64,000 nucleotides of DNA from Acidimicrobiia bacterium (GTDB taxonomy: Bacteria; Actinomycetota; Acidimicrobiia; Acidimicrobiales; Aldehydirespiratoraceae), in contig JAJEEV010000037.1 in the NCBI GenBank assembly GCA_022820805.1, positions 71,923 to 135,922 of the forward strand, written 5' to 3'. The position numbers and the translations under genes are program-made. The notes under the pieces are model-generated. The model saw nothing but the letters and a program-made list of their open reading frames with translations, did no database searches and had not been told where the DNA came from. Positions 37,264-63,289 of this stretch are shown in pieces; the stretch's first letter is position 1; each line of letters begins with the position of its first letter.

Positions 37264-37830
37264 ATGACAGCAACCGCCCCCGCCCACCGGGTAGCGCCGC
37301 AAGTGACCCAAACCCCCGATCCGGACACACCCCCGCAATCGCAGGCCGCGGGCTCGGCCGTGGAGGCCGGGACCGCCAGGCCCAGGCTGCGAGACCAGAT
37401 CGCAGAGAACCCCCTGCTGAGCCTCGTCGGTGCATTGCTGACGCTCGGCGGCACTGCGATAGTCGCGCTGCTTCTCTTCACACTGACCAGCATCAACACC
37501 CGCATCGACGGTGTTGAGGTGAGCCTCGGTGACCGCATTGATCGTCTGGACGCGAGGCTCAGTGACCGTATCGATGGTGTTGTGGTGAGCCTCGGTGACC
37601 GCATTGACGGTGTTGAGGTGAGCCTCGGTGAACGTATCGATCGCGTCGAGATGAGGCTCAGCGCACGCATGGACCGCCTTGAGGACAAGATGGACGCCGG
37701 CTTCGCGGCCCAGGGCGCCGCGATCGCCGAGAACGACCGGAAGTTGACCGCGCTGGTCGCCATGCTGAACGTGACTGCTGAAGTCGACGCCGCGCTCGAA
37801 GGCAGGCTGCTGATCCCCGGCGGGAGCTGA
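37264..37830 (+). CDS. Membrane-anchored coiled-coil repeat protein (Pro-rich N-terminus, one TM helix, RIDxL repeats)
   Basis: GGGGAGAAG before ATG; TM LLSLVGALLTLGGTAIVALLLF; repeats SLGDRIDRLDARLSDRIDGVVVSLGDRIDGVEVSLGERIDRVE; RMDRLEDKMD resembles 56555-57067. Confidence 0.65.
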   Translation: MTATAPAHRVAPQVTQTPDPDTPPQSQAAGSAVEAGTARPRLRDQIAENPLLSLVGALLTLGGTAIVALLLFTLTSINTRIDGVEVSLGDRIDRLDARLSDRIDGVVVSLGDRIDGVEVSLGERIDRVEMRLSARMDRLEDKMDAGFAAQGAAIAENDRKLTALVAMLNVTAEVDAALEGRLLIPGGS

Positions 37831-38461: not shown

Positions 38462-39253
38462 GTGACGGTGTTGCCTGAGTTGGGGCTGGTCCGGTCTGAC
38501 GACCTGGACGGGGTGCTGGCTGCGGTCGACTACGACCATGCCCCCTACGCCGGCGGGACCGAGTTGGTGCCGGCCATGGGGCTGGGTCTGCGCCGTCCGG
38601 CGGCCGTTGTGGACCTCAAGCGGGTCGAGGCCCTGAGGGGGATCGACGTCGACGCCGGGGCCGCCACGGTGACTATCGGGGCGGCGGTGACCCATCGCCG
38701 GCTGTCGGACCATCCGGCTGTCCGCGAGCACCTGCCCACGCTGGCCGCCGCGGCGTCCCGGGTGGGCAACGCCCGGGTGCGCTCCACCGGAACCGTGGGC
38801 GGCAACCTCTGCTTCGCCGAGCCCCGCTCCGACCTGGGCTGCGTGCTGGTCGCGCTGGGTGCCACCGCCGAGGTTCGCTCCGCCCGGGTCACCCGCACCC
38901 TCAGCATCGACGAGCTGATCGTGGGCGCATTCGAGACCTCGCTAGAGCCGGACGAGATCCTCACCACCATTGCTGTGCCGTTCGAGCCGCCCGGCATGTC
39001 GTACTGGAAGCTCCAGAGCTACGAGCGGCCCACCCTCGGCGTCGCCCTGGTGGTCTCCGAGTCCCGGTGGGAGGTCACTGTGGGCGCGGCCACCGAGCGG
39101 CCCACCCGGGCCGTGCTCGCTGCGGGCGACACTGCCGGGCTGGCCGCCTTCGTCGACGGGTTGGAGCTCAGCGACGACATGACCGGCCCGCCCGAGTACA
39201 AGCGTTCGGTGTTGCGGTCCCACCTCGGACGGAACCTGGGGGCGACGGCATGA
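38462..39253 (+). CDS. Molybdenum hydroxylase FAD-binding (medium, CoxM-like) subunit
   Basis: YAGGTELVPAM, TVGGNLCFAEPRSD, PPEYKRSVL C-terminus. Confidence 0.85.
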   Translation: MTVLPELGLVRSDDLDGVLAAVDYDHAPYAGGTELVPAMGLGLRRPAAVVDLKRVEALRGIDVDAGAATVTIGAAVTHRRLSDHPAVREHLPTLAAAASRVGNARVRSTGTVGGNLCFAEPRSDLGCVLVALGATAEVRSARVTRTLSIDELIVGAFETSLEPDEILTTIAVPFEPPGMSYWKLQSYERPTLGVALVVSESRWEVTVGAATERPTRAVLAAGDTAGLAAFVDGLELSDDMTGPPEYKRSVLRSHLGRNLGATA

Positions 39254-39393
39254 CCGCCCTCGCGGCTACAAGCGATCGGTGCTGTGGGTTTGTCTCGAAC
39301 GGAACCTGGGGGCGACGGCATGACCGCCCGCCCGAGTACAAGCGCTCAGTGTTGCGGACCCACCTCGAGCGCGCATTAGGGGCGACCCGATGA
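39179..39393. repeat. Junction minisatellite: coxM 3' end repeated 3x (71/70/70 bp)
   Basis: Units start 39179, 39250, 39320 (ATGACCG..CCCGAGTACAAGCG..GGGGCGAC..), a fourth ATGACCGCC at 39390. Confidence 0.85.
39250..39393 (+). CDS. Junction-repeat mini-ORF (47 aa), stop/start-overlapped on both sides
   Basis: ATG overlaps coxM TGA (ATGA 39250-39253); its TGA overlaps the next ATG (39390-39393); C-terminus PPEYKRSVLRTHLERALGATR mimics the coxM end. Confidence 0.3.
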   Translation: MTALAATSDRCCGFVSNGTWGRRHDRPPEYKRSVLRTHLERALGATR

Positions 39394-40041: not shown

Positions 40042-40133
40042 GGGTACGGCTCCGGCTCCGGTGGCGGCTCGCACCGGCGCGGTGGTCGACTGGGTGCCCG
40101 ATGGGCGCGGCGTGTTGGGAGGGCGACCAGTGA
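40038..40133 (+). CDS. Junction-repeat mini-ORF (31 aa)
   Basis: Ends ..CWEGDQ-TGA overlapping coxL GTG (GTGA 40130-40133); 40104-40133 repeats 40012-40041. Confidence 0.25.
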   Translation: MRVRLRLRWRLAPARWSTGCPMGAACWEGDQ

Positions 40134-42478
40134 GCGTCCCCACTGGCAGCGTGCCTCGCAGCGACGGCTGGGAGAAGGTCACCGGCCGGGCCCGTTACGC
40201 CGTCGACATGGCCTTGCCCAACATGGCCCACGCAGCGGTGGTGCGCTCCGAGCGGGCCCACGCCCGCATCACCGGCATCGACCGGGCCGAGGCCCAAGCC
40301 GCCCCGGGTGTGATCGCGGTGGTCACCGCCGACGACCTCGGCTACCTCGGCCGCCGCTTCGGCCACATCGTCTGTGACCACCCGATCCTGGCCGTCGACA
40401 AGGTCCGCTACTACGGCGAACCGGTAGCGGTGGTGGTGGCCGAGACCCCCCAACAGGCCGCCGACGCGGCCGAGCTGGTGTGGGTCGACTACGACGACCT
40501 GCCCGCCCTCACCGGCGCGGCCGGCGCCCTCGCCTCCGATGCCCTCATCCACGAGCAGTCTTATCCCCCGCCCGGCGAGGCGTTCCTGGGCGTGGCTCCG
40601 GCCGCCTCCACCGACAACGTCGCCCACCATGACGAGCTGGCCTGGGGCGACGCCGGGGCCGCCCTGGCCGCGGCCGCCACCGTGGTCGAGACCACCGCCA
40701 GCTTCCCGCTGGTCTACGGCTACGCCATGGAGACCTACAACGCGGTGGCCGACTGGCAGCACGGCTCCCTGCACGTGATCTCCACCGCCCAGCACCCGCT
40801 GATGGTCCGCAAGGAGCTGGCCCGCATCTTCTCGCTGCCGCTGGCCGCGGTGCGCGTCGAGGTGCCCTACATCGGCGGCGGCTACGGCTCCAAGTCCTAC
40901 ACCAAGCTCGAGCCCCTGGCGTCGGTGGTGTCGTGGGCCGCGGGACGGCCCATCAAGGTCACCACTGACATCGAGGGGGCCATGAACACCACCCGGGCCG
41001 ACGGCGCCGTCGTCACCGTGCGCACCGGCTTCGACGCCGGCGCCCGCATCTGCGCCCGCGACATCGAGATCCGTTTCGACACCGGCGCCTACGCCGACAA
41101 CAGCCCTCTAGTGCTCACCAAGAGCATCAACCGCAGTTTCGGCCCCTACCGGGTGCCCAACCTGCGGGTGCGGGGGACCGCGGTGTACACCAACACCTCC
41201 CCGGCGTCCTCGTACCGGGGTTTCGGCGCGCCCCAGGGTGCGCTGGCCGGCGAGCTGAACATGGACATGGCTGCCGAGCGGCTCGGCATCGACCCCGTCG
41301 AGCTGCGCCGCCGCAACCTGCTTGCCCCCGGCGACACGATCATCGACGGCAAGCGCCCCCTCGACGCCGACCTGGTCGCCGACCTCGACGCCATCGTCGC
41401 CGCGCTCGAACGCCCCGCCCCCAGCGGTGCGCACGCACCCGCTGATGTGGCCGGCAGGGTCCGTGCCGCTGATTCCGCTTCGGCCCCGGCCACAGATGGC
41501 GGCCACGACGCTGGCAGCGGCCCTCTCCGGGGTTGGGGGGTGGCCGTGTCCGCCAGCGACGCCGGCGCGTCGCCGATCTCCACCGCCCAGGTCCGCATGC
41601 ACGCCGACGGGTCGGTCACGCTGCTGGTGAGCAGCACCGAGATGGGTCAGGGCAGCCGCACCGCGCTGGCCCAGATCGCGGCCCGGGAGCTGGGCGTGCC
41701 GATGGAGGCGGTGGCCGTCGGCCAGAGCGACACCCGGTTCACGCCCTTCGAGTGGACCACCGGCGCCAGCCGCACCACCACCGTGGTCGGCCTGGCCGTG
41801 CAGGCCGCCTGCACCGACCTGTGGAACAACCTGCGAGCCAAGGCCGCCGAATCCGCCGGCGTCTCCCTCGACCGCACCGAGGTCCACGACGGCCGGGTCT
41901 ATGTCGACGGCGAGGCGCTGACCCCGGCTGAGGTGATCCGGCAGTGGTTCGGCGCCGACGCCGGCGAGGTCGTGGGCGTGGGGGTGATCCGCCGTGACGG
42001 CGCCACCGAGATGCTGCCCCCGTTCTGGGAGATCGGCGCCGTCGGGGTGGAGGTGTCGGTCGATACCGCCACCGGCGAGGTCACCGTCGAGCACCTGGTG
42101 ACCGTGGGCGACGTCGGCCATGCCGTGAACCCCGACCTGGTCAAGGGCCAGGATTTGGGCGCGGCCACCCAAGGTCTGGGCATCGCCCTGTGGGAGGAGA
42201 TGGTCTACGACGGCGAGCAGCTCACCAACCCCAACCTGATCGAGTACCGGGTGCCCCGCCTGCGCGACACTCCCCGCCGGATCACGTCGGTGCTGGCCGA
42301 GCGGGGCGACGGGGCCGGACCCTACGGCGTGAAGGGCGCCGGCGAGGGCGCCCTCAACCCGGTCCCGGCCGCTGTGGCCGCCGCCGTCGGCCGGGCCGTC
42401 GGCGTATGGCCCACCGAGGTGCCCCTGACCCCGCCGAGGGTCTGGTCCCTCCTCCAGGAAGCCGCCAACGAGGTCTGA
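40130..42478 (+). CDS. Molybdopterin-binding (large, CoxL-like) subunit of a xanthine dehydrogenase-family hydroxylase
   Basis: EKVTGRARYAVDM, SSYRGFGAPQGA, GAGEGALNPVPAA; no CO-dehydrogenase VAYRCSFR-type signature seen. Confidence 0.9.
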   Translation: MSVPTGSVPRSDGWEKVTGRARYAVDMALPNMAHAAVVRSERAHARITGIDRAEAQAAPGVIAVVTADDLGYLGRRFGHIVCDHPILAVDKVRYYGEPVAVVVAETPQQAADAAELVWVDYDDLPALTGAAGALASDALIHEQSYPPPGEAFLGVAPAASTDNVAHHDELAWGDAGAALAAAATVVETTASFPLVYGYAMETYNAVADWQHGSLHVISTAQHPLMVRKELARIFSLPLAAVRVEVPYIGGGYGSKSYTKLEPLASVVSWAAGRPIKVTTDIEGAMNTTRADGAVVTVRTGFDAGARICARDIEIRFDTGAYADNSPLVLTKSINRSFGPYRVPNLRVRGTAVYTNTSPASSYRGFGAPQGALAGELNMDMAAERLGIDPVELRRRNLLAPGDTIIDGKRPLDADLVADLDAIVAALERPAPSGAHAPADVAGRVRAADSASAPATDGGHDAGSGPLRGWGVAVSASDAGASPISTAQVRMHADGSVTLLVSSTEMGQGSRTALAQIAARELGVPMEAVAVGQSDTRFTPFEWTTGASRTTTVVGLAVQAACTDLWNNLRAKAAESAGVSLDRTEVHDGRVYVDGEALTPAEVIRQWFGADAGEVVGVGVIRRDGATEMLPPFWEIGAVGVEVSVDTATGEVTVEHLVTVGDVGHAVNPDLVKGQDLGAATQGLGIALWEEMVYDGEQLTNPNLIEYRVPRLRDTPRRITSVLAERGDGAGPYGVKGAGEGALNPVPAAVAAAVGRAVGVWPTEVPLTPPRVWSLLQEAANEV

Positions 42479-42858
42479 CCCGCCCCGAGATTGGGTCCCT
42501 CAGATCTCGGGTGCGCAACCTGTCGTATACCCGGACAACTCGCCCCGAGATTGCGTCCCCCCAGATCTCGGGTGCGCAACGTGTCGTATACCTGTGCTGC
42601 TCGCCCCGAGATTGCGTCCCCCCAGATCTCGGGTGCGCAACGTGTCGTATACCCGTACTGCTCGCCCCGAGATTCTGTCCCCCAGATCTCGGGTGCGAAA
42701 CGTGTCGTATGCCCGCATTACTCGCCCCGAGATTGCGTCCCCCAGATCTCGGGCGCGAAACGTGTCGTATGCCCGCATTACTCGCCCCGAGATTGGGTCC
42801 CTCAGATCTCGGGCGCGATACCGGTTGTATGCCTGTGCTGTTCGCCCCGAGATTCTGC
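42479..42858. repeat. Tandem array, 6.3 copies of a 60/61-bp hairpin-containing unit (family 2a)
   Basis: Units start 42481, 42541, 42602, 42663, 42723, 42783, 42843; each has inverted repeat CCCGAGAT..ATCTCGGG and GTGTCGTAT(A/G)CC. Confidence 0.9.
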
Positions 42859-42867
42859 GGGGGACGG

Positions 42868-43998
42868 TTACGGGTCGCTCTCCAGCAGGGCCAGCGCGGC
42901 TCCCAGGTACTGCTCGGCGGCCTGGGTCATGCGGATCAGCCCGTACGTGTCGAGCACGGCCCGCTTGAGCCGGTCGGGGCTGGCCCGGCGCAGCGCGGCC
43001 TGCTGGATCACGCCGGCCACCGCATGGGCCGGCTGCTCACCGCTACCGGCCCGCCCCAGCAACTCCTGGCGCTTGTGGCCCATGAGCTCGGCGATCTCGT
43101 TGAGGGGCACCTCGTACAGCGACCGCTCGCCCAGTTCCCGGACCACCACCGCAGCGGTGCCGGTCATCCGCAGCACCTGCTGGACCTCGCCCGCGTTGTC
43201 GAGTTCGTCGACCTCCACCTGCCCTCGCAGCTTGAGCCGGCCGAGGGCCTGCTCCATCGGGGCCCGGGCCCTCTGCGTGACCTTCGAGGACCCGGACGCC
43301 CGGATGTACAGCCGGTAGGCCCGGTCGGCGGTGACCGGTCCCTCCGTGCCCACGATCTCGAGCAGGAACGAGGCCACCTGAGCCACCGCCGCGGTGCGAG
43401 GGTCGGGGAGTTCGCTGCCCTGCCACGCCACATGAGCCCGCGGCGCGCCATCAGCGGCCGGGTCCGGGGTCCCCGGGCCGGTTGCCGCCGGTTGGGCTGC
43501 AGTCCCGGGGCCGATCGCCTCTCCGAGTGCAGCGTCACCACCGGATCGGGCCTCCGAGTCGGGCACTCGCTCCATGAACCGCCCGGGCTGGGGCAGTTCG
43601 GAGAACCCCGCAGGCCGGTACAGCTCGTGGGCGTCGGCGGTGATGAGCATCAGCCGCCTGATCCCGGCAACGGACGGGTGCTCGCAGGCCGCCGCCACCA
43701 GCGCCTTGCCCAGCCCTCGCCCCCGGTGCTCAGCCAGCACGTACACGTCGGCCAGCCATCCGAACGTGGTCCGGTCGGTCACGATCCGGGCCCCGCCCAC
43801 CATCGAACCGTCGGCCCCGTAGATGCCGATTACCACGCTGTTGGCCGCGGCCACCTCGGTCTCCTGCCGGCTGCGGTCCCGGGCCCAGTACGCCTCTCGC
43901 ACCAGGAAGTCGTGCATGGCACCGGCGTCGAAGCGCGCCGGGTCGTCGGAGATCAGATACTCCCCGCACTGCCGCTGAAACAGACCCGCCGCACTCAC
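42868..43998 (-). CDS. GNAT N-acetyltransferase fused to a C-terminal domain of unknown function
   Basis: GNAT core VYVLAEHRGRGLGKALV; C-terminal about 200 aa (LLEIVGTEGPVTADRAYRLYIRASGSSKV..) unassigned; start GTG 43998 tentative. Confidence 0.7.
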   Translation of the reverse strand: MSAAGLFQRQCGEYLISDDPARFDAGAMHDFLVREAYWARDRSRQETEVAAANSVVIGIYGADGSMVGGARIVTDRTTFGWLADVYVLAEHRGRGLGKALVAAACEHPSVAGIRRLMLITADAHELYRPAGFSELPQPGRFMERVPDSEARSGGDAALGEAIGPGTAAQPAATGPGTPDPAADGAPRAHVAWQGSELPDPRTAAVAQVASFLLEIVGTEGPVTADRAYRLYIRASGSSKVTQRARAPMEQALGRLKLRGQVEVDELDNAGEVQQVLRMTGTAAVVVRELGERSLYEVPLNEIAELMGHKRQELLGRAGSGEQPAHAVAGVIQQAALRRASPDRLKRAVLDTYGLIRMTQAAEQYLGAALALLESDP

Positions 43999-44227
43999 GG
44001 CGCCAGACGCTACCCGTTGCCGCGGTCCGACCTGGGCCTGGCGCTTGCTCTGTAGCGCGAGATCGGTAGTATCGAAGCGGGTAAGCGGGCCGTTTTGGCC
44101 GTAGTCCGGCGCGACCGTCTGCACACCACCCCGACCAGCGGCGCCGATCTTGGTTGATGTGTCGAATGACACGAATGGAATACTAAACAGTACCAATCCA
44201 TGCTAAATTAGTAGTTACGGTGGCTGG

Positions 44228-47039: not shown

Positions 47040-47133
47040 CGCCCCACCCTAGAGAACCGCTAGCCCTCCGGATTCCCTGCGAGCGCGATTGGCAGCGGGT
47101 TGCACGCATACGGCGCATATCCTCCCGCGGCCC

Positions 47134-47258
47134 TCCCCTCAGATCTCGGGTGTGGAACCGGTTGTATGCCGGTGCTGTTCGCCCCGAGATTGCGTCCCTC
47201 AGATCTCGGGTGTGGAACCGGTTGTATGCCCGTGCTGTTCGCCCCGAGATTACGTCCC
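47134..47258. repeat. Family-2 hairpin repeat, about 2 units (60-bp period)
   Basis: CAGATCTCGGGTGTGGAACCGGTTGTATGCC at 47140 and 47200; CGCCCCGAGATT at 47180 and 47240. Confidence 0.85.
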
Positions 47259-47347
47259 CGGGCTGCCAGTTCGTGTGGGCCGTGGGCGGGCCGTTCCGAG
47301 GTCGTCGGCCGGGATTTCGGCGACATCCGGGCGACAACTAGCCTGCC

Positions 47348-49606: not shown

Positions 49607-49644
49607 GTCGCGGCGTCAGCGGGACTGCTTGCGGGGCCTCACGG

Positions 49645-49715
49645 AGCGGATGACGAGAATCGAACTCGCATTCTCAGCTTGGGAAGCTGATGTTCTACCA
49701 TTGAACTACACCCGC
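49645..49715 (-). tRNA. tRNA-Gly (anticodon CCC)
   Basis: Cloverleaf read by hand: acceptor GCGGGTG/CATCCGC, D arm GTTC-AATGGTA-GAAC, anticodon arm TCAGC-TTCCCAA-GCTGA, T arm GCGAG-TTCGATT-CTCGT, discriminator T; CCA not fully encoded. Confidence 0.9.
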
Positions 49716-49753: not shown

Positions 49754-50030
49754 CCGTCCTGGGCTGGTTCTCGGGTGTGTTGTGTGTCGTACACCCGCCG
49801 CTGCGCTCCCGAGAATTGGTGGGTCCGTCCTCGGCTGGTTCTCGGGTGTGTTGTGTGTCGCACACCCCCTGCTGCGCTCCCGAGAATTGGTGGGTCCGTC
49901 CTCGGCTGGTTCTCGGGTGTGTTGTGTGTCGTACGCCCGCCGCTGCGCTCCCGAGAATTGGTGGGTCCGCCCTCGGCTGGTTCTCGGGTGTGTTGTGTGT
50001 CGCACGCCCCCTGGTGCGCTCCCGAGAATT
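49754..50030. repeat. Tandem array, 4 copies of a 71-bp hairpin-containing unit (family 2b)
   Basis: GGCTGGTTCTCGGGTG at 49762, 49833, 49904, 49975; each unit also has GTGTGTCG(T/C)AC(A/G)CC and CTCCCGAGAATT. Confidence 0.9.
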
Positions 50031-50830: not shown

Positions 50831-50913
50831 CGTGCCGTTATACCCCGACCAACGCCCGTCCCCGAAATTGGTGCGGATTGTGGGTGTCCAGTAGCCGTTT
50901 CGTCGCCAGTTTC

Positions 50914-50970
50914 GGGGGGGGGGACCGGTTCGGGCTGGGCTGGTTCGGGCTGGGCTGGTTCGGGCGGGAC
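50914..50970. repeat. G10 homopolymer followed by a short GGGCTGGTTCGGGCT-type tandem repeat
   Basis: G run 50914-50923; GGTTCGGGCTGGGCT repeated 2.5x; lies between the aminotransferase stop and the yaaA start. Confidence 0.8.
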
Positions 50971-50974
50971 CGGT

Positions 50975-52225
50975 TCAGGCGGCGGTGGCCTTCTCCGCGT
51001 CGGCCTTGTCGGCGCCCGACTCCCCGGCACCGGCACCGGCCCCGGCGCTCGGCTCTAGCTCTGGCAGGCAGCGGCGCAGGTTGCGGATCCCCTGGCCGAT
51101 GCGCTGGCGGTTCTCGATCAGCGCGAACCGCACATGACCCTCACCGCCGGGCCCGAACCCCACGCCCGGCGAGACGGCCACATGGGCCTCCCGCACCAGC
51201 TTCGACGCGAACTCGATGGAATCCATGTGCTGGTACGGCTCGGGGATCCTGGCCCACACGAACATGGTCCCCTTGGGCGGCTCCACCTCCCAGCCGATGC
51301 GGTTGAGGCCCTCGCACAGGGCGTCCCGCCGGCGCTCGTACACCGCGCACGCCTCCAGCGGGTAGTCGGGCTGCTCCAGCAGCGTGACCGCCGCCGCGAT
51401 CTGGATCGGTTGGAACGACCCGTAGTCGAGGTAGCTCTTGAGCTTGGCCAGCGCGGCCACCACCTCGGCGTTGCCCAGCATGAACGCCATCCGCCACCCG
51501 GCCATCGAGAACGACTTGGTGCACGAGTAGAACTCCACCGCGCACTCCTTGGCCCCGTCCACCTGCAGGATCGACGGCGGCTGGTACCCGTCGAAGCCGA
51601 GGTCGGCGTAGGCGTTGTCGTGCACGATCAGCATGTCGTGCTCGCGGGCCCAGTCCACCACCTTCTGCATGAAGTCGAGGTCGACGCAGGTGGTGGTGGG
51701 GTTGTGCGGGAACGAGATCACCGCCACCCGGGGCTTGGGCCGGCTGTAGTGCCAGGTGAGCTGCATCCGGTGGACGAACTCGTCGCCGCCGGCGAGGGGC
51801 ACCTCCCGGATCTGGGCGCCCGCGAACAGCGGTCCGTAGATGTGGATCGGGTAGCTGGGGGTGGGCACCAGGCAGGTGTCGCCGGGCTGGAGCAGCACCC
51901 ACATAAGGTGGCTGAACCCCTCCTTGGCGCCGATGGTGTTGATGACCTCGGTGTCGGGGTCGAGCTCCACCCCGAAGCGGCTCTGGTACAGCGCGGCGAT
52001 GTTGCGGCGCAGCGCGGGCAGGCCCCGGCTGGACGAGTAGCGGTGGTTGCGGGGGTTGCGGGCCGCCTCGCACAGCTTGTCGACGGCGATGTCGGGCGAC
52101 GGCAGGTCGGGGTTGCCGAACCCGAGGTCGATGATGTCGGCGCCGTCGTGGCGGAGCTTGATCTTCAGGTCGTTGATGATCGTGAAGACGTATGGGGGCA
52201 GGCCGTTGATCCGGCGGAACTCCAT
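50975..52225 (-). CDS. Class I/II PLP aminotransferase, AlaC-like
   Basis: FRRINGLPPYVF, DLGFGNPD, SYPIHIYG, SCTKSFSMAGWR (PLP lysine); codons between 52225 and ATG 52267 have low GC3, so the start is set at 52225. Confidence 0.85.
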   Translation of the reverse strand: MEFRRINGLPPYVFTIINDLKIKLRHDGADIIDLGFGNPDLPSPDIAVDKLCEAARNPRNHRYSSSRGLPALRRNIAALYQSRFGVELDPDTEVINTIGAKEGFSHLMWVLLQPGDTCLVPTPSYPIHIYGPLFAGAQIREVPLAGGDEFVHRMQLTWHYSRPKPRVAVISFPHNPTTTCVDLDFMQKVVDWAREHDMLIVHDNAYADLGFDGYQPPSILQVDGAKECAVEFYSCTKSFSMAGWRMAFMLGNAEVVAALAKLKSYLDYGSFQPIQIAAAVTLLEQPDYPLEACAVYERRRDALCEGLNRIGWEVEPPKGTMFVWARIPEPYQHMDSIEFASKLVREAHVAVSPGVGFGPGGEGHVRFALIENRQRIGQGIRNLRRCLPELEPSAGAGAGAGESGADKADAEKATAA

Positions 52226-52366: not shown

Positions 52367-52430
52367 GTGCTGGTGATGGCGGTGCTGGTGATGGCGGTGC
52401 TGGTGCTGGCGGTGCTGGTGCCGGCGGTGG
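52367..52430. repeat. 15-bp tandem repeat GTGCTGGTG(A/C)(T/C)GGCG x4
   Basis: Units at 52367, 52382, 52397, 52412. Confidence 0.85.
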
Positions 52431-52449: not shown

Positions 52450-52584
52450 GGCTGGTTCTCGGGAGTGTTGGGTGTCGTACACCCCCCGGTGCGCTCCCGA
52501 GAATCGGTGGCCCCGCCCTCACCTGGTTCTCGGGAGTGTTGGGTGTCGTATAGCCGCCTCCACGCTCCCGAGAAATCTCGGGGC
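52450..52584. repeat. Family-2 hairpin repeat, about 2 units (71-bp period, family 2c)
   Basis: CTGGTTCTCGGGAGTGTTGGGTGTCGTA at 52452 and 52523; ends in tight palindrome CCCGAGAAATCTCGGGG. Confidence 0.85.
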
Positions 52585-52631: not shown

Positions 52632-53195
52632 GTGATCCTGTCGGACCGCTCGATCCGGGAGGCGCTCGACGCGGGCCGCATCGTCATCGACCCGCTCGGC
52701 GAGGGCGCGGTGCAGCCGTCGTCGGTGGACCTGCGCCTCGACGACAGTTTCCGGGTGTTCCGCAACCACTCGCTGGGCCACATCGACGTGAAGCGGGACC
52801 TGTCGGAGCTGACGACGCTGGTGGGCGCCGACGACGACAACCCGTTCATCCTGCATCCGGGCGAGTTCGTGCTGGGGGCCACCCTGGAGCGGGTGGCGCT
52901 GGCCGACGATCTGGTGGCCCGCCTGGAGGGCAAGTCGTCGCTGGGCCGCCTGGGCCTGCTGATCCACTCGACCGCGGGGTTCGTCGATCCCGGCTTCGAG
53001 GGGCAGCTCACCCTGGAGTTGTCGAATGTGGCCAACCTGCCGATCACCCTGTATCCGGGCATGCGCATCGGCCAGATCAGCTTCCAGATGATGACCACTC
53101 CGGCCGACACGCCATACGGGTCGGGGGAGTTGGGTTCGAAGTACCACGGCCAGCGGGGGCCGGTCCCGTCCCGCTACTGGGAGAACTTCAGCTAG
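52632..53195 (+). CDS. dcd: dCTP deaminase
   Basis: [40 protein letters not shown]. Confidence 0.9.
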
Positions 53196-53199
53196 CGCA

Positions 53200-53395
53200 G
53201 CCCGCAGCCCGGAGCCCGTGGCCTGTGGCCGGCAGCCTGTGGCCGGCAGCCCGTGGCCTGTGGCCGGCAGCCCGGAGCCCGTGGCCTGTGGCTCGGAGCC
53301 CGTGGCCTGTGGCCGGCAGCCTGTGGCTCGGAGCCCGGGGCCTGTGGCCGGCAGCCCGTGGGCCGGCAGCCCGTGGCCCGGCTTGGCCTGGGTGG
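53200..53395. repeat. Degenerate GC-rich short tandem repeats (GCCCGTGGCCTGTGGCCGGCA-type)
   Basis: Fills the convergent gap between the dcd stop (53195) and the P450 stop (53409). Confidence 0.8.
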
Positions 53396-54626: not shown

Positions 54627-54632
54627 TTCCCC

Positions 54633-54812
54633 GGTCACGCTAGGCAGGAAGGGTTGATTGTCGCAATGAGCGCCTCGGGGACGACCAGGTCCCGGCAGGC
54701 GTGCGGTCACGCTAGGCAGGAAGGGCTGATTGTCGCAATAGACGCCTCGGGGACGACCAGGTCCCGGCAGGCGTGCGGTCACGCTAGGCAGGAAGGGTTG
54801 ATTGTCGCAATG
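54633..54812. repeat. 72-bp tandem repeat x2.5 of the SDR gene 5' region in the P450/SDR divergent promoter
   Basis: GGTCACGCTAGGCAGGAAGGG(T/C)TGATTGTCGCAAT at 54633, 54705, 54777; the third copy ends in the SDR ATG. Confidence 0.9.
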
Positions 54813-55637
54813 GCGCTGTTCGATGCGTTCCGGTTCGACGGCAGGCGGGTGCTGGTGGTGGGGGGTGCCACCGGGATGGGCGCCGCCGCGGCTGAGCTGG
54901 CCCTGGCCGCCGGTGCGGAGGTGGTGGTCATGGACCGGGCCGAGGTGACCCTGGCCGGGGCGACCGCCATCGGCTTGGACTTGGCCGAGCAGGCGTCGAT
55001 CGAGGCCGCGGTGGACGCTTGCGGCGGGCCGGTGCACGCCCTGCTGGCGTGCGCGGGAGTGGCCGACGGCACGCCGGGCCTCGAGCGGATCAACTTCGTC
55101 GGGCATCGTCACCTGATCGATCGCATGCTCGATGCCGGGATGCTGGCTGCGGGCTCGGCCATCGGCTTCATCTCGTCGTCGGCGGGCCTGGGCTGGGAGT
55201 CGAACCTCGAGGAGTTCAAGGAGGTGCTGGCCATCACCGACTTCGACGAGGCCGCGGCCTGGTTCGTGGCCCATCGCAAGGCCGACTACTTCCACACCAA
55301 GCAGGCGGTGTGCGCCTATGTCGCTGCCCAGGCCTACCCGATGCTTCAGCGGGGGGTTCGCATCAACGCCATCTGCCCGGGCCCGACGGTGACCCCGCTG
55401 GCCGAGGCCAACAGGGATCTGTGGCTGGAGTTCGGCGCCGACTACCGGTCCGACGCGGGGGTGGAGGCTTCCACGCCCATGGAGCAGGCCTACCCGCTGC
55501 TGTTCCTGTGCAGTGACGCCGCCGCGTACGTCACCGGGGTGACGTTGATCAGCGACGCCGGCTACATCAGCGCGGGAGTCACGGGGTCGTATCCCTCGGC
55601 CACCGACCCGGCCAACTTCCTCCTGGGCCGTTTCTGA
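54810..55637 (+). CDS. Short-chain dehydrogenase/reductase (SDR)
   Basis: VLVVGGATGMG cofactor motif, YFHTKQAV (YxxxK), INAICPGP; in-frame alternative ATG at 54666. Confidence 0.85.
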   Translation: MALFDAFRFDGRRVLVVGGATGMGAAAAELALAAGAEVVVMDRAEVTLAGATAIGLDLAEQASIEAAVDACGGPVHALLACAGVADGTPGLERINFVGHRHLIDRMLDAGMLAAGSAIGFISSSAGLGWESNLEEFKEVLAITDFDEAAAWFVAHRKADYFHTKQAVCAYVAAQAYPMLQRGVRINAICPGPTVTPLAEANRDLWLEFGADYRSDAGVEASTPMEQAYPLLFLCSDAAAYVTGVTLISDAGYISAGVTGSYPSATDPANFLLGRF

Positions 55638-55696: not shown

Positions 55697-55739
55697 AGGC
55701 CGGTCACGGCCGGACCCGGTGGCGTCTATCCTCGGTGCC

Positions 55740-56021
55740 ATGCCGAGACCCACCAAGCGCCGTGTGCCGGCTGGTCGTGTGACGGCCAAGGGCACCCGCC
55801 CCGACAACTACAAGCCCGACCAGCAGAGCCACACCGGGTTTGATGCGCAGCCTCCGAGCCCGATCTGGGTGCCGATCCTGCTGTTCAGCCTGCTCGGGGC
55901 AGGCGTGGCACTGATCATCGTCAACTACCTGGCCGTGTTCTGGGACACCTCGAACGTGGTGCTGCTCGGAGGTCTGGCCCTGATCCTGGCCGGGATCGTC
56001 ACAGCCACCCAGTACCGCTGA
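55740..56021 (+). CDS. crgA: Cell division protein CrgA
   Basis: MPRPTKRRV basic N-terminus, two TM helices (IWVPILLFSLLGAGVALIIVNYL, VVLLGGLALILAGIV), about 93 aa. Confidence 0.8.
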   Translation: MPRPTKRRVPAGRVTAKGTRPDNYKPDQQSHTGFDAQPPSPIWVPILLFSLLGAGVALIIVNYLAVFWDTSNVVLLGGLALILAGIVTATQYR

Positions 56022-60466: not shown

Positions 60467-60664
60467 AGGACCGGCCGTCGACTCGGGCCCGGCGGTCCAT
60501 CGAGGACCGGCCGTCGACTCGGGCCCGGCGGTCCATCGAGAACGGGCGGTCCATCGAGGACCGGCCGTCGACTCGGGCCCGGCGGTCCATCGAGAACCGG
60601 CGGTCCATCAAGAACCGGCCGTCTGTCAAGAACCGGTCGTCTGTCAAGGACCGGTCGTCATCTA
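60467..60664. repeat. 18-bp-based tandem repeat (AGRACCGGNCGTC...), about 11 units, some paired into 36-bp units
   Basis: AGGACCGGCCGTCGACTCGGGCCCGGCGGTCCATCG x3 interleaved with AGAAC(C/G)GGCGGTCCATC(G/A) etc. Confidence 0.85.
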
Positions 60665-60680
60665 CGGGCTCGACGGACGG

Positions 60681-61337
<657 letters not shown>

Positions 61338-61371
61338 GTCTGGACTGTACTCGCCACCACAACCCCCCATA

Positions 61372-61492
61372 TTTCTCGGGAGTTCCGGCCCCGCTGTGTG
61401 ACACGCAGCGCTCCCGAGATCCAGCGGGGTGCGGTGTGGCGGTTTCTTGGGAGTTCTGGCCCCGCTGTGTGACACGCAGCGCTCCCGAGATT
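61372..61492. repeat. Family-2 hairpin repeat, 1.7 units (71-bp period, family 2d)
   Basis: TTTCT(C/T)GGGAGTTC(C/T)GGCCCCGCTGTGTGACACGCAGCGCTCCCGAGAT at 61372 and 61443. Confidence 0.85.
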
Positions 61493-61540
61493 CGGCGGCA
61501 GACGGATCGGGCCAACGCGGCCACGGCTACCCTCTGCGCA

Positions 61541-63289
61541 ATGCTTGACACGCTGATAACCGGCGGCACGCTGATAGACGGCACCGGCGCCCCCGCCCGC
61601 CCGGCCGACATCGGAATCGCCGACGGCCGGATCGTGGCCGTGGCCGACCCCGGCACCCTCGCCGCCACCGGAGCCACCGACACCATCGACGCCACCGGCC
61701 TGGTGGTGTGCCCCGGCTTCATCGACCCCCACACCCACTACGACGCCCAGATCTTCTGGGACCCCAGAGCCACCCCGTCAAACCTGTTCGGCGTCACCAG
61801 CGTGGTCGGCGGCAACTGCGGCTTCTCGCTGGCCCCGCTCACCCACCCCGACGACGGCGAGTACCTCAAGCGCATGATGGTGAAGGTCGAGGGCATGGAG
61901 CTGGCCGCGCTGGAGGAGGGCGTGCCCTGGGACTGGGAAAGCTTCGCCGACTACCTGCGGGCCGTCGAGTCCCGCGGCATAGGCGTGAACGCCGGCTTCA
62001 TGGTGGGCCACTGCGCCCTGCGCCGGGCCGTGATGCGCGACGACGCCGTGGGCCACGAGGCCAACGACGACCAGATCGCCCTGATGCGGGCCCTGCTGGC
62101 CGAGTCGCTGGCCGCCGGCGGGCTGGGCTTCTCCACCGGCCGCAGCTACACCCACAACGACTGGGACGGTCAGCCCGTGCCCAGCCGCTGGGCGTCCGAG
62201 CACGAGGTGCTGGAGCTGTGCCGGGAGACGTCCGCCCACCCCGGCACCACCCTGGAGTGGGTGGCCGACGGCTGCATGAAGGGCTTCAGCGACGACGAGG
62301 TCGACCTGATGACCCGCATGTCGCTGCAGGCTCAGCGCCCCCTCAACTGGAACGTGCTCACCATCGACTCGGCCCGCCCCGACGACTACCGCAACCAGAT
62401 CGCCGCCTGCGAGCGGGCCGCCGAGGCGGGGGCGGTGGTGGTGGCGCTCACCATGCCGATCCTGGTGGGGATGAACATGAACCTGGGCACGTTCTGCGCG
62501 CTGCACATGCTGCCGGACTGGCCCGACACGTTCGGCCTCCCGATCCCCGAGCGCATGCAGGCCCTTCGCAACAAAGAGACCCTGATCGCCCTGGAGAACT
62601 CGGCGGCCAGCCCGGAGGCCGGCGTGTTCAGCCGCCTCACGGGCTGGTCGGACTACCGCATCGGCGACACCTACTCGGCCGCCAACGAGGGCCTGAAGGG
62701 CCGCCGCATCGGCGACATCGCCCGCGAGCGGGGCCAGCGGGATTTCTTCTGCCTGGTGGACATCTGCCTGAACGACGACCTGCGCACCGTGCTGTGGCCG
62801 GCCCCCACCGACGACGATCCCGAGAGTTGGCGCCTGCGGGCCGAGGCCTGGGAGCATCCGGCGGTGATGATCGGCGGCAGCGACGCCGGGGCCCACCTCG
62901 ACCGCATGGCCGGCGCCTGCTACACCACCGCCTGGATCGACGACTGCCTGCGGGGCCGGCGGCTCACCACCCTCGAGAACGCCGTCCATCACCTCACCGA
63001 GGCACCGGCCCGGCTGTTCGGCCTCAAGGGCCGGGGCCGCATCGCCGAGGGCTGCTTCGCCGATGTGGTGCTGTTCGATCCCGACACCGTGGGCGCCACC
63101 GAGCCGGTGCTGGTGGCCGACCTGCCCGGCGCGGGCCGGCGCCTGTGGGCCGAGGCCACGGGTGTGCGCCGGGTGATGGTCAACGGGGTCACCACCGTGG
63201 TGGACGGCGAGGCCACTGAGGCGCTGCCGGGCACGGTGCTGCGCTCGGGACGCCACACCGACACGGTGCCGGCCGGAGCCGCCGCCTAG
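61541..63289 (+). CDS. N-acyl-D-amino-acid deacylase (D-aminoacylase) family amidohydrolase
   Basis: ITGGTLIDGTG, PGFIDPHTHYD, GGSDAGAHLD. Confidence 0.85.
   Translation: MLDTLITGGTLIDGTGAPARPADIGIADGRIVAVADPGTLAATGATDTIDATGLVVCPGFIDPHTHYDAQIFWDPRATPSNLFGVTSVVGGNCGFSLAPLTHPDDGEYLKRMMVKVEGMELAALEEGVPWDWESFADYLRAVESRGIGVNAGFMVGHCALRRAVMRDDAVGHEANDDQIALMRALLAESLAAGGLGFSTGRSYTHNDWDGQPVPSRWASEHEVLELCRETSAHPGTTLEWVADGCMKGFSDDEVDLMTRMSLQAQRPLNWNVLTIDSARPDDYRNQIAACERAAEAGAVVVALTMPILVGMNMNLGTFCALHMLPDWPDTFGLPIPERMQALRNKETLIALENSAASPEAGVFSRLTGWSDYRIGDTYSAANEGLKGRRIGDIARERGQRDFFCLVDICLNDDLRTVLWPAPTDDDPESWRLRAEAWEHPAVMIGGSDAGAHLDRMAGACYTTAWIDDCLRGRRLTTLENAVHHLTEAPARLFGLKGRGRIAEGCFADVVLFDPDTVGATEPVLVADLPGAGRRLWAEATGVRRVMVNGVTTVVDGEATEALPGTVLRSGRHTDTVPAGAAA

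What the first reader, a model, noticed from the sequence alone, without database searches (positions are those of the whole stretch)
42479..42858. Array of 6.3 tandem 60/61-bp hairpin units filling a convergent intergenic gap (founding locus of repeat family 2)
Seen: the 389-nt gap between the coxL stop (42478) and the GNAT-fusion stop (42868) is almost entirely repeats. Unit starts are 42481, 42541, 42602, 42663, 42723, 42783 and 42843. Each unit reads CGCCCCGAGAT - C-rich loop - ATCTCGGGTGCG..GTGTCGTAT(A/G)CC plus about 8 variable nt. CCCGAGAT/ATCTCGGG form an 8-bp inverted repeat. Clearly related units (TCTCGGG..GTGTCGTAYRCC..CCCGAGA; 60 or 71 bp) form arrays at 47134-47258, 49754-50030, 52450-52584 and 61372-61492; four of those are in divergent promoters or upstream of a tRNA. 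Because the stems recur in every unit, hairpins can form within or across units. Inference: a REP/BIME-like structured repeat family. It may act as a bidirectional terminator or mRNA stabiliser here, and as protein-binding or supercoil-absorbing arrays in promoters. I do not recognise the family.
Basis: partly seen in the sequence, partly recalled or inferred. Interest (0 to 1): 0.65.

Follow-up and report, generated by a model that had tools for sequence, protein, structure and literature searches.

The report
Tandem hairpin repeats in sponge Acidimicrobiia
A 46-bp hairpin-forming DNA element, found only in a small group of sponge-associated Acidimicrobiia, has been copied head-to-tail into short, copy-number-variable arrays between genes; it is an undescribed family of an ordinary kind of bacterial repeat, and no function has been shown.

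Summary
Window 42481-42854 holds 6.2 head-to-tail units of 60/61 bp, and related arrays lie at the four other places named.

The conserved module is not the 60-bp unit. It is a 46-bp imperfect palindrome ("E"): TCTCGGG-N32-CCCGAGA, with a conserved 5' inner half (G9, TTG, GTGTCGTAYAG) and a variable 3' inner half. Spacers of 14-15 or 25 bp give the 60/61- and 71-bp periods.

The window holds 16 copies at 5 intergenic sites, all within 42.4-61.5 kb. The fifth array is inverted.

E occurs only in close relatives, which are sponge-associated Acidimicrobiia with 92-97% protein identity. There it is single-copy or in arrays of a different copy number or period, and it is present at some sites and absent at others. 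The given locus is a recent gain: three relatives carry other hairpins in that gap. One relative carries E in frame inside an Lhr helicase gene. Array length varies between samples.

E has no Rfam, phage or plasmid match, no U-tract and no transposase nearby. Each subfamily sits at only two neighbouring loci, so the family is low-copy.

Best reading: a lineage-specific palindromic element (REP/MITE/TRIT-like) amplified as a minisatellite. Its function is untested.

The parts
42481..42854 (+). Array 1: a partial 3' arm (CGCCCCGAGAT, 42481-42491) followed by six 46-bp E elements at 42505-42550, 42566-42611, 42627-42672, 42687-42732, 42747-42792 and 42807-42852. Spacers are 14-15 bp (TTGCGTCCCC(C)CAGA). 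It lies in the convergent gap between the dehydrogenase large-subunit gene and the GNAT gene.
   Evidence: unitig support and a 4-unit-shorter allele; absent in relatives L031/L032/L034
47144..47249 (+). Array 2: two E elements (47144-47189, 47204-47249), period 60, same subfamily as unit 6 of array 1. It lies in the divergent gap between the amidohydrolase gene (-) and mtnA-like gene (+).
   Evidence: absent in L003, L006, L012, L032, L034
47088..47115 (.). Left arm and inner part of a second palindrome family (ATTGGCAGC...CATACGGCG). In relatives this element is intact as GAACTGGCAGC-N26-GCTGCCAGTTC. In the window, array 2 splits it.
47262..47272 (.). Right arm (GCTGCCAGTTC) of the same split palindrome.
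49769..50027 (+). Array 3: four E elements (49769-49814, 49840-49885, 49911-49956, 49982-50027), period 71, in an ABAB pattern. It lies between the yaaA stop codon and the tRNA-Gly(CCC) promoter.
   Evidence: 3 copies in L027, 1 copy with the same flanks in L032, none in L005/L007
52457..52573 (+). Array 4: two E elements (52457-52502, 52528-52573), period 71. It lies in the divergent gap between the aminotransferase gene (-) and dcd (+). About 24 bp of its left flank is shared with array 3.
   Evidence: orthologous 2-copy arrays in L005, L007, L027
61374..61490 (-). Array 5: two E elements in the opposite orientation (61374-61419, 61445-61490), period 71. They lie between two inferred leaderless promoters, msrA (-10 TACAGT) and amidohydrolase (-10 TACCCT).
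   Evidence: 1 copy in L002, 3 copies at period 60 in L017, at least 3 copies with an N gap in L026
50860..50917 (+). Related palindrome 'F' (CCCCGAAATTGGTG...CGCCAGTTTCGGGG). Its inner sequence TTGTGGGTGTCCAGTAGCCG resembles the E inner sequence GTTGGGTGTCGTATAGCCG. It lies between the aminotransferase gene and yaaA. The same F family fills the dehydrogenase/GNAT gap in L031 and L032.

Best explanation
E is a lineage-specific, non-coding, hairpin-forming DNA element with a 46-bp core and an invariant 7-8-bp foot, TCTCGGG/CCCGAGA. It belongs to the general class of small palindromic intergenic repeats (REP, MITE, TRIT-like). It is gained, lost and overwritten at intergenic sites between close relatives. 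Together with a short spacer it is amplified head-to-tail into minisatellite arrays whose copy number varies between strains. I infer that the amplification occurs by slipped-strand or unequal recombination, helped by the hairpins.

At the given locus, an E array replaced an ancestral single palindrome (F) that sat between the two convergent stop codons. Any transcript crossing the array therefore carries up to six stable stem-loops. The most likely effect there is 3'-end protection or transcription attenuation, as for REP or TRIT hairpins, rather than canonical intrinsic termination. In the divergent gaps E lies upstream of the inferred core promoters. There it is probably tolerated cargo, or acts only through DNA structure (cruciform).

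Shown: the anatomy, the restriction to one clade, presence/absence between relatives, copy-number variation, hairpin potential, and the lack of coding or Rfam identity. Inferred: the mode of spread, the mode of amplification, and any effect on transcripts.
For: Anatomy: there are 16 copies. Every window copy is 46 bp and the termini are invariant.

Hairpin: each copy folds into a nearly full-length hairpin. RNA energies are -13 to -30 kcal/mol with z-scores of -2.2 to -6.9. DNA energies are -8 to -15 kcal/mol. The pair just outside the foot covaries (AU 11, UA 10), and inner pairs at alignment columns 22/41 and 20/43 show several pair types.

Clade restriction: a strict pattern scan of 185,579 species genomes gave 7 hits, all in Acidimicrobiia MAGs. 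A looser metagenome scan gave true members only on high-G+C contigs syntenic with the window. There were 0 hits in viral contigs, plasmids and phages, and no Rfam match.

Gain and loss among relatives with 92-97% protein identity:
- Arrays 1 and 2 are absent from L032, L031 and L034.
- The yaaA/tRNA site has 4, 3, 1 or 0 copies in different genomes.
- The msrA site has 1, 2, at least 3 (L026), or 3 copies at a different period.
- E lies in frame inside an Lhr helicase linker in L001.

Copy-number polymorphism: run X3 has an allele 241 bp (4 units) shorter.

The ancestral F palindrome overlaps the GNAT stop codon in L031 and L032.

The genome is generally prone to 60-72-bp intergenic tandem duplication.
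Against: The family is low-copy. Unitig censuses at 80% identity or more find subfamily 1 only at arrays 1 and 2, and subfamily 2 only at arrays 3 and 4. This is unlike classical REPs or MITEs.

No target-site duplication is visible, no transposase lies within reach, and no clean empty-site/filled-site pair could be defined.

Three of the five sites are divergent promoter gaps, where a 3'-end role is impossible.

No U-tract follows the hairpins.

The invariant foot, the fixed length and the conserved 5' inner half, kept in orthologous copies, point to sequence-specific recognition by something not identified here.

Units of array 1 differ by up to 12 of 46 positions. That is more than the 7-9% third-codon-position divergence from L032, the closest relative in these comparisons, which lacks the array. 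Simple recent slippage does not explain this.
Confidence: 0.6

Rival explanations
1. E is primarily an RNA element. The stem-loops are selected as factor-dependent terminators or as 3'-end stabilisers, or they make a small RNA. They would be the functional analogue in this clade of mycobacterial TRIT hairpins.
For: F and E occupy convergent or co-directional gene ends. F overlaps the GNAT stop codon in L031 and L032. E overlaps the stop codon of an ORF of at least 71 aa that runs off the contig end in L022. RNA folds are very stable. The G/U-rich 5' arm tolerates transitions in the 3' arm through G-U pairs. TRIT is a precedent for sequence-conserved palindromes at gene ends in Actinobacteria (PMC3152330).
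Against: There is no strand asymmetry in folding: the plus strand is better in only 18 of 30 copies. Only the 8-bp foot is a consensus structure. There is no U-tract, and mycobacterial RNA polymerase is reported to need one (title and abstract of PMC3993855). At the msrA/amidohydrolase gap E lies upstream of both inferred leaderless promoters, so neither mRNA would contain it. E orientation relative to flanking transcription is mixed. RNA data are absent.
Confidence: 0.18
2. E is a cis-regulatory DNA site, either an operator or a binding array for a transcription factor or nucleoid protein. The arrays would be multiplied binding sites.
For: The foot half-sites and the 5' inner motif are invariant, and the length is strictly conserved without indels. 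Four of the five sites lie just upstream of inferred core promoters: E starts about 21 nt upstream of the msrA -10, 36 nt upstream of the tRNA-Gly -10, and about 37 nt upstream of the amidohydrolase -10. E is retained at orthologous sites upstream of msrA and dcd.
Against: The spacing to promoters is variable. Half-sites 39 bp apart are atypical for an operator. The largest array lies between convergent stop codons. E is present or absent at the same promoter among close relatives, for example yaaA/tRNA in L005/L007 against the window. E occurs in frame inside the Lhr coding sequence. The flanking genes share no functional theme.
Confidence: 0.12
3. E is a true non-autonomous mobile element, moved as a single-stranded hairpin by a trans-acting HUH (RAYT or IS200/IS605-type) or other transposase encoded elsewhere in the genome. 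The arrays would be built by repeated insertion next to existing copies.
For: E has been gained at new sites, including inside two other palindromes and inside an ORF. The hairpin foot is invariant and the conserved motif is asymmetric, as expected for a protein-recognised hairpin. Adjacent units diverge more than recent slippage would predict. Modules of E plus spacer are shared between different loci and species: arrays 3 and 4 share flanks, and the 60-bp module occurs in array 1 and in L017.
Against: No transposase is in the window or in any of the relatives' loci for which gene calls with Pfam hits were returned. There is no GTAG-like motif and no target-site duplication. The family is low-copy and spreads only locally. 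Insertion boundaries are not clean.
Confidence: 0.25
4. This is an assembly artefact, or a neutral minisatellite in which the palindrome has no significance.
For: Short-read scaffolds break inside such arrays: L026 has an N gap there.
Against: Unitigs from independent runs tile the array exactly. Three assemblies agree. The termini are invariant across orthologous and paralogous copies while the inner 3' half diverges.
Confidence: 0.03

Closest known systems
REP / BIME / REPIN-RAYT systems of Proteobacteria (PMC3116915, PMC3337134, PMC5581495)
   Same: They are short, imperfect palindromes confined to extragenic space. They are vertically inherited within a narrow lineage, retained at orthologous sites, clustered, and able to form hairpins in DNA and RNA.
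   Different: E is low-copy, with each subfamily at two neighbouring loci, rather than tens to hundreds of dispersed copies. Its units are strictly head-to-tail, not alternating as in BIMEs. It has no GTAG-type 5' motif. No RAYT was found within reach. RAYT groups associated with REPs are described from Enterobacteria and Pseudomonas.
MIRU-type VNTR minisatellites of mycobacteria (own knowledge; reviewed in PMC3184786)
   Same: They are 40-100-bp units repeated head-to-tail in intergenic regions of a high-G+C actinobacterium, with copy number that varies between strains.
   Different: MIRUs are not palindromes. They typically sit inside operons, with small ORFs that overlap the neighbouring genes. 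E units do not encode such junctions. Another array in this window (39171-39368) does look MIRU-like.
TRIT, the sequence-conserved palindromic terminator-like motif of Mycobacterium (PMC3152330)
   Same: It is a genus-restricted actinobacterial palindrome with both sequence and structure conserved. It is bidirectional, sits at gene ends and often overlaps the stop codon. The related F element does this in L031 and L032, and E does so in L022.
   Different: No sequence similarity was tested or is claimed. TRIT has 147 dispersed single copies, whereas E is low-copy and tandem. Three of the five E sites are divergent promoter gaps.
MITEs (miniature inverted-repeat transposable elements; PMC3184786)
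   Same: They have terminal inverted repeats, are non-coding, lie in intergenic regions, and show presence/absence between relatives.
   Different: At 46 bp, E is below the usual MITE size. No target-site duplication is seen, no parent IS is known, and E forms tandem arrays.
Rickettsia palindromic elements (RPE; own knowledge)
   Same: A palindromic repeat that can sit in frame inside a protein-coding gene without breaking it, as E does in the Lhr linker of L001.
   Different: Only one such case was seen here. RPEs are 100-150 bp, and there is no sequence relationship.

Membership tests
REP / REPIN-RAYT | Short imperfect palindrome restricted to extragenic space | tested here: met
   The 46-bp hairpin lies in intergenic gaps. 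There is one exception, inside an ORF in L001.
REP / REPIN-RAYT | Tens to hundreds of dispersed copies per genome | tested here: not met
   The window has 5 loci, all within 19 kb, and none in the other 42 kb. Unitig censuses at 80% identity or more find each subfamily at only two loci. More diverged copies elsewhere cannot be excluded.
REP / REPIN-RAYT | Conserved GTAG-type tetranucleotide at the 5' foot of the hairpin | tested here: not met
   The flanks are GGAA, CAGA or GGTT.
REP / REPIN-RAYT | Cognate single-copy RAYT (Y1 HUH transposase) flanked by the repeats | tested here: inconclusive
   No PF01797 or other transposase hit was found among about 50 window proteins or in the called genes of the relatives' loci.
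BIME | REPs in alternating orientation separated by defined linker motifs | tested here: not met
   All units within an array are in direct orientation.
MITE | Terminal inverted repeats | tested here: met
   TCTCGGG/CCCGAGA is invariant, and extends to 8-10 bp in many copies.
MITE | Target-site duplication and a parent IS with matching ends | tested here: not met
   The flanks are GAA...TTC or AAT, which extend the palindrome and are not direct repeats. A parent IS could not be tested.
MIRU-like VNTR minisatellite | Head-to-tail 40-100-bp intergenic units with copy number varying between strains | tested here: met
   TRF result. Run X3 has an allele 4 units shorter. Array 3 has 4 copies in the window, 3 in L027 and 1 in L032. 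Array 5 has 2 copies in the window and at least 3 in L026.
MIRU-like VNTR minisatellite | Units carry overlapping stop/start codons that link flanking ORFs | tested here: not met
   No coding signal by third-position G+C. The 60/61-bp periods break the reading frame.
Canonical intrinsic terminator | G+C-rich hairpin followed directly by a U-tract | tested here: not met
   The hairpin is present. The tail is AUU, AAU or UUC only. The consensus scan found no site at arrays 1, 2, 4 and 5, and only weak internal matches in array 3.
TRIT-like conserved terminator palindrome | Sequence-conserved palindrome placed narrowly at or over stop codons | tested here: inconclusive
   This holds for F in L031/L032 and for E in L022 and array 1. 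It does not hold for the three divergent-gap arrays.
CRISPR array | Identical repeats separated by unique spacers; cas genes nearby | tested here: not met
   The spacers are 14-25 bp and are themselves repeated. No cas domains were found.
Any Rfam family | Covariance-model match at or near the gathering score | tested here: not met
   At the gathering threshold the only hit is the tRNA. In E-value mode only chance-level hits appear.

The most novel reading that the evidence does not exclude
E, F and the TGGCAGC palindrome may be members of one superfamily of 46-52-bp hairpins. The members would share a centrally placed, relatively A+T-rich motif (GTTGNGTGTC-GTAYAG) and differ by wholesale compensatory change of the foot. 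A dedicated hairpin-binding protein of these Acidimicrobiia would recognise them. That protein could be an HUH/RAYT-like enzyme or a termination or processing factor. It would copy or convert one palindrome into another at neighbouring sites and build arrays by self-targeted insertion. This would be a TRIT/REPIN-like system in an uncultured symbiont clade, with local rather than genome-wide spread.
Probability: 0.15. Interest if true: 0.6.

Novelty: new member of a known kind. Interest (0 to 1): 0.35.

Why it matters
Small palindromic repeats are well studied in Proteobacteria (REP/REPIN) and mycobacteria (MIRU, TRIT). I found no description of one for Acidimicrobiia or for sponge symbionts, although the literature library covers open-access papers only.

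In practice, the arrays are strain-level length markers (VNTR) for an uncultured symbiont. They also break short-read assemblies: L026 has an N gap inside one.

Biologically, three observations would be worth following up if complete genomes and stranded RNA data become available. One palindrome family has overwritten another between the same two stop codons. The spread is local. One copy sits in frame inside Lhr. Together these offer a small natural experiment on how hairpin elements turn over. Nothing here points to a new kind of system.

Tried and rejected
- Known RNA family: rejected. Rfam finds only the tRNA at the gathering threshold, and only chance hits in E-value mode on the arrays.
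- tRNA-like or tmRNA: none apart from tRNA-Gly at 49643-49715.
- CRISPR: rejected, because the spacers are themselves repeated and there are no cas genes.
- Coding repeat: rejected by third-position G+C and by the 60/61-bp periods.
- Sigma-70 promoter or canonical terminator inside the units: none. My hand attempts to read -35/-10 or ECF-type motifs in the conserved core did not fit the required spacing.
- Strand-specific RNA structure: no asymmetry. Only the foot is a consensus structure.
- Transcription evidence: the one metatranscriptome run holds relatives only, as undirected contigs, and no contig lies on the sub2 unit. No RNA run holds the array words.
- Phage or plasmid origin: no match.
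- Transposase or RAYT in the window: none. One Pfam call failed on bad coordinates and was repeated.
- Replication-strand bias: GC skew is uninformative.
- Inversion sites for dcd: no second E or matching inverted repeat at the other boundary.
- Inner motif outside E: a fuzzy search found only chance hits in coding sequence, so the superfamily idea rests on a few hand comparisons.
- Structure-count one search was mis-registered by 2 columns. One search is the correct one.
- The genome and metagenome collection scans used exact patterns, so diverged members were missed.

Full report
**1. Observation**

Tandem Repeats Finder reports 42481-42854 as period 60, 6.2 copies, 89% matches, score 499. 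It also lists the four other arrays: 47136-47258 (60 bp x 2.0), 49754-50030 (71 bp x 3.9), and two weaker ones that I confirmed by reading the sequence.

Gene calling by third-position G+C, with Pfam, places array 1 between two convergent genes. These are a molybdopterin dehydrogenase large-subunit gene (40061-42478, +) and a GNAT gene (42868-44196, -).

**2. The conserved module**

Re-phasing the units shows that the invariant module is a 46-bp element, which I call E: TCTCGGG-N32-CCCGAGA.
- It is 46 bp in all 16 window copies and in most copies from relatives (45 bp in two diverged ones).
- Conserved positions are G9, TTG at 12-14 and GTGTCGTAYAG at about 16-26. The 3' inner half is variable.
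- The 60/61-bp and 71-bp periods come from spacers of 14-15 or 25 bp.
- A degenerate pattern for E gives 16 hits in the window against 0 in 100 shuffles. It also shows that the fifth array (61374-61490) is in the opposite orientation.
- A covariance model built from 25 copies finds no further copy in the window. All five loci lie within 42.4-61.5 kb.

**3. The array is real**

- Unitigs of two independent sponge-metagenome runs (X1, X2) tile the array with no mismatch.
- A third run (X3), with somewhat diverged flanks, has a contig that skips 241 bp, which is exactly four units.
- Two other metagenome assemblies (L027, L028) carry the identical 389-bp gap.
- Copy number differs elsewhere too. 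Array 3 has 4 units in the window and 3 in L027. Array 5 has 2 in the window and at least 3, with an N gap, in L026.

**4. Source organism and distribution**

The window words occur almost only in sponge metagenomes. An exact-pattern scan of one genome per species (185,579 species) gave seven hits. All are in Acidimicrobiia MAGs, and one is named Candidatus Aldehydirespirator sp.. That family is described as sponge-associated (PMC11706023).

A looser pattern in the metagenome collection gave 18 hits. About six are true members (L012, L017, L019, L022, L023). The rest lack every other family feature and look like chance. Viral contigs, plasmids and phages gave nothing.

The E-bearing genomes are close relatives. 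Orthologous proteins are 92-97% identical, and third codon positions differ by 7-17%.

**5. Turnover between relatives**

- *Dehydrogenase/GNAT gap.* Three relatives have only 57-74 bp here. L031 and L032 carry a different palindrome, F (CCCGAAATTGATG-N26-CATCAATTTGGGG), which overlaps the GNAT stop codon. L034 has yet another hairpin. Array 1 is therefore a recent gain, not a founding locus.
- *Amidohydrolase/mtnA gap.* L003, L006 and L012 carry a third palindrome, GAACTGGCAGC-N26-GCTGCCAGTTC, in two or three tandem copies. In the window that palindrome is split by the two-unit E array. L032 has neither element.
- *yaaA/tRNA-Gly gap.* The window has 4 copies and L027 has 3. L032 has 1 with the same flanks. 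L003, L006 and L012 have 1 of another subtype. L005 and L007 have none.
- *msrA/amidohydrolase gap.* L002 has 1 copy, the window has 2 at period 71, and L017 has 3 at period 60.
- *Inside a gene.* In L001, E lies in frame inside an Lhr helicase ORF. It sits in a linker that is about 53 residues longer than in the solved M. smegmatis Lhr.

**6. Relationships within the window genome**

Arrays 3 and 4 lie 2.5 kb apart. They share the element, the spacer and about 24 bp of left flank. Unit 6 of array 1 is closest to the units of array 2, which lies 4.3 kb away.

Unitig censuses at 80% identity or more in X1, X2 and X3 recover subfamily 1 only at arrays 1 and 2, and subfamily 2 only at arrays 3 and 4. 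The family is therefore low-copy and spreads locally, unlike classical REPs.

**7. Structure**

- Every copy folds into a nearly full-length hairpin. As RNA the energies are -13 to -30 kcal/mol, with z-scores of -2.2 to -6.9. As DNA they are -8 to -15 kcal/mol.
- Across copies only the 8-bp foot is a consensus structure. One of its pairs covaries (AU 11, UA 10, broken 4).
- Counting symmetric pairs shows 74.7% of cells paired against 71.1 +/- 1.2% in shuffles. Inner pairs show several pair types (GC 10, AU 7, UA 1 at columns 22/41). Because the copies are related, this is only modest support.
- Neither strand folds consistently better.
- In arrays, the 3' arm of one unit and the 5' arm of the next form an alternative short-loop hairpin of about the same energy.

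**8. Position relative to signals (inferred)**

At the msrA/amidohydrolase gap, two blocks are conserved in three species. They read as -10 hexamers (TACAGT, TACCCT) placed 6-7 nt before the start codons, which implies leaderless mRNAs. E lies between them, upstream of both.

At the tRNA-Gly site, E starts 36 nt upstream of a conserved TACGAT/TACGCT hexamer.

The distances are not constant, which argues against a dedicated operator. No U-tract follows the hairpins, and the consensus scan finds no promoter or canonical terminator in the units. No usable RNA data exist.

**9. What it is not**

- Not a known RNA family.
- Not CRISPR.
- Not coding.
- No transposase or RAYT lies among about 50 window proteins or in the annotated relatives' loci.

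**10. Interpretation**

The best-supported reading has three parts.
- E is a lineage-specific palindromic intergenic element of the REP/MITE/TRIT kind.
- It turns over between close relatives.
- Together with a spacer, it is amplified into minisatellite arrays that vary in copy number.

The window shows the same habit at unrelated sequences: 39171-39368, 54632-54816, 60467-60659 and 53196-53382.

At the given locus the array replaced a single ancestral hairpin between two stop codons. The most plausible effect is therefore on the 3' ends of the two convergent transcripts (protection or attenuation). This is inferred, not shown.

**11. What remains unexplained**

- The foot is invariant, the length is fixed, and one inner half is conserved.
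- Array-1 units diverge from one another by up to 12 of 46 positions. That exceeds the divergence from L032, the closest relative in these comparisons, which lacks the array.
- All loci are clustered within 19 kb.
- Both recent insertions lie inside other palindromes. The left junction of array 1 (CCCCGAGATTG) resembles the F arm (CCCCGAAATTG).

These points keep alive a more interesting reading in which a dedicated hairpin-recognising protein copies or converts such elements locally. I give that reading about 15%.

**12. Comparison with known families**

REP/BIME/REPIN-RAYT: E shares the palindromic, extragenic, lineage-restricted character. It fails on copy number, on the GTAG motif and on alternating orientation. 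The RAYT test is inconclusive (PMC3116915, PMC3337134, PMC5581495).

MIRU-type VNTRs: E shares the tandem, polymorphic, intergenic character but not the ORF-linking structure.

TRIT (PMC3152330): this is the nearest actinobacterial analogue for F, and for E at gene ends. It does not fit the three divergent-gap arrays.

Overall, E is a new member of a known kind and is of moderate interest.

Noticed in passing
window 39171-39368: A 70-bp x 2.8 tandem array lies at the junction of the FAD-binding and 2Fe-2S subunit genes of the dehydrogenase operon. Each unit carries 'gggcgacggcATGAccgcc', which is an RBS-like stretch plus an overlapping start/stop. This arrangement is MIRU-like and is unrelated in sequence to E.
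   Followed up: partly
window 54632-54816: A 72-bp x 2.6 tandem duplication of a 5' leader ('cggtcacgctaggcaggaagggttgattgtcgcaATG') lies between the P450 gene start (54626, -) and the next plus-strand start.
   Followed up: no
window 60467-60659: An array with 18/36/54-bp periods lies between the EamA transporter gene and the 3' end of msrA. Its unit contains the palindrome GGACCGCCGGTCC (consensus AGGACCGGCGGTCCATCG).
   Followed up: no
window 37504-37659: A 33/66-bp repeat is made of 42-bp palindromes with arms TGAGCCTCG/CGAGGCTCA in alternating orientation, which is a BIME-like layout. It lies in a 780-bp stretch with no ORF of high third-position G+C. Relatives have a called 188-190-aa gene of unknown function at this position, so the repeat may be coding.
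   Followed up: no
window 53196-53382 and 52367-52429, 50917-50982: G+C-rich short-period tandem repeats (7/21/35/49 bp, 15 bp, 15 bp) lie next to arrays 4 and 3 and to the F element. Together with the arrays above, they show that intergenic DNA in this genome is generally prone to tandem duplication.
   Followed up: no
window 50860-50917; L003 1487-1538; L005 4931-4982; L031 2536-2583; L032 7119-7166: A second palindrome family, F (CCCGAAATTG...CAATTTCGGG, 48-58 bp), is conserved between the aminotransferase gene and yaaA. In L031 and L032 it fills the dehydrogenase/GNAT gap and overlaps the GNAT stop codon. Its inner sequence in the window resembles the conserved inner half of E.
   Followed up: partly
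L003 5973-6082; L006 86-124; L012 71-190; remnants at window 47088-47115 and 47262-47272: A third palindrome family (GAACTGGCAGC-N26-GCTGCCAGTTC, centre GTAYRS) occurs in 2-3 tandem copies in the amidohydrolase/mtnA gap of relatives. In the window it is split by E array 2.
   Followed up: partly
L001 6489-6534 (contig JAJEHD010000019.1): An E copy of subfamily 1 lies in frame inside an Lhr-type helicase ORF. It sits in the linker between the ARRLAERL motif and HHGS, which is about 53 residues longer than in M. smegmatis Lhr (5v9x).
   Followed up: yes
window 52632-53195 compared with L023 6546-7106: The dcd gene alone is inverted in the window, L005 and L007 relative to L023 and L006. The genomes with the inversion carry the E pair at one junction. 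No matching repeat was found at the other junction.
   Followed up: partly
window 61337-61352 and 61528-61543; 47318-47338: Conserved TANNNT hexamers lie 6-9 nt before the start codons of msrA, the 61541 amidohydrolase gene and mtnA. This suggests that leaderless or near-leaderless mRNAs are common here. This is inference from conservation only.
   Followed up: partly
window 55719-56021: A crgA homologue is present. In mycobacteria crgA lies close to oriC (own knowledge), so the window may be origin-proximal. GC skew gave no signal.
   Followed up: no
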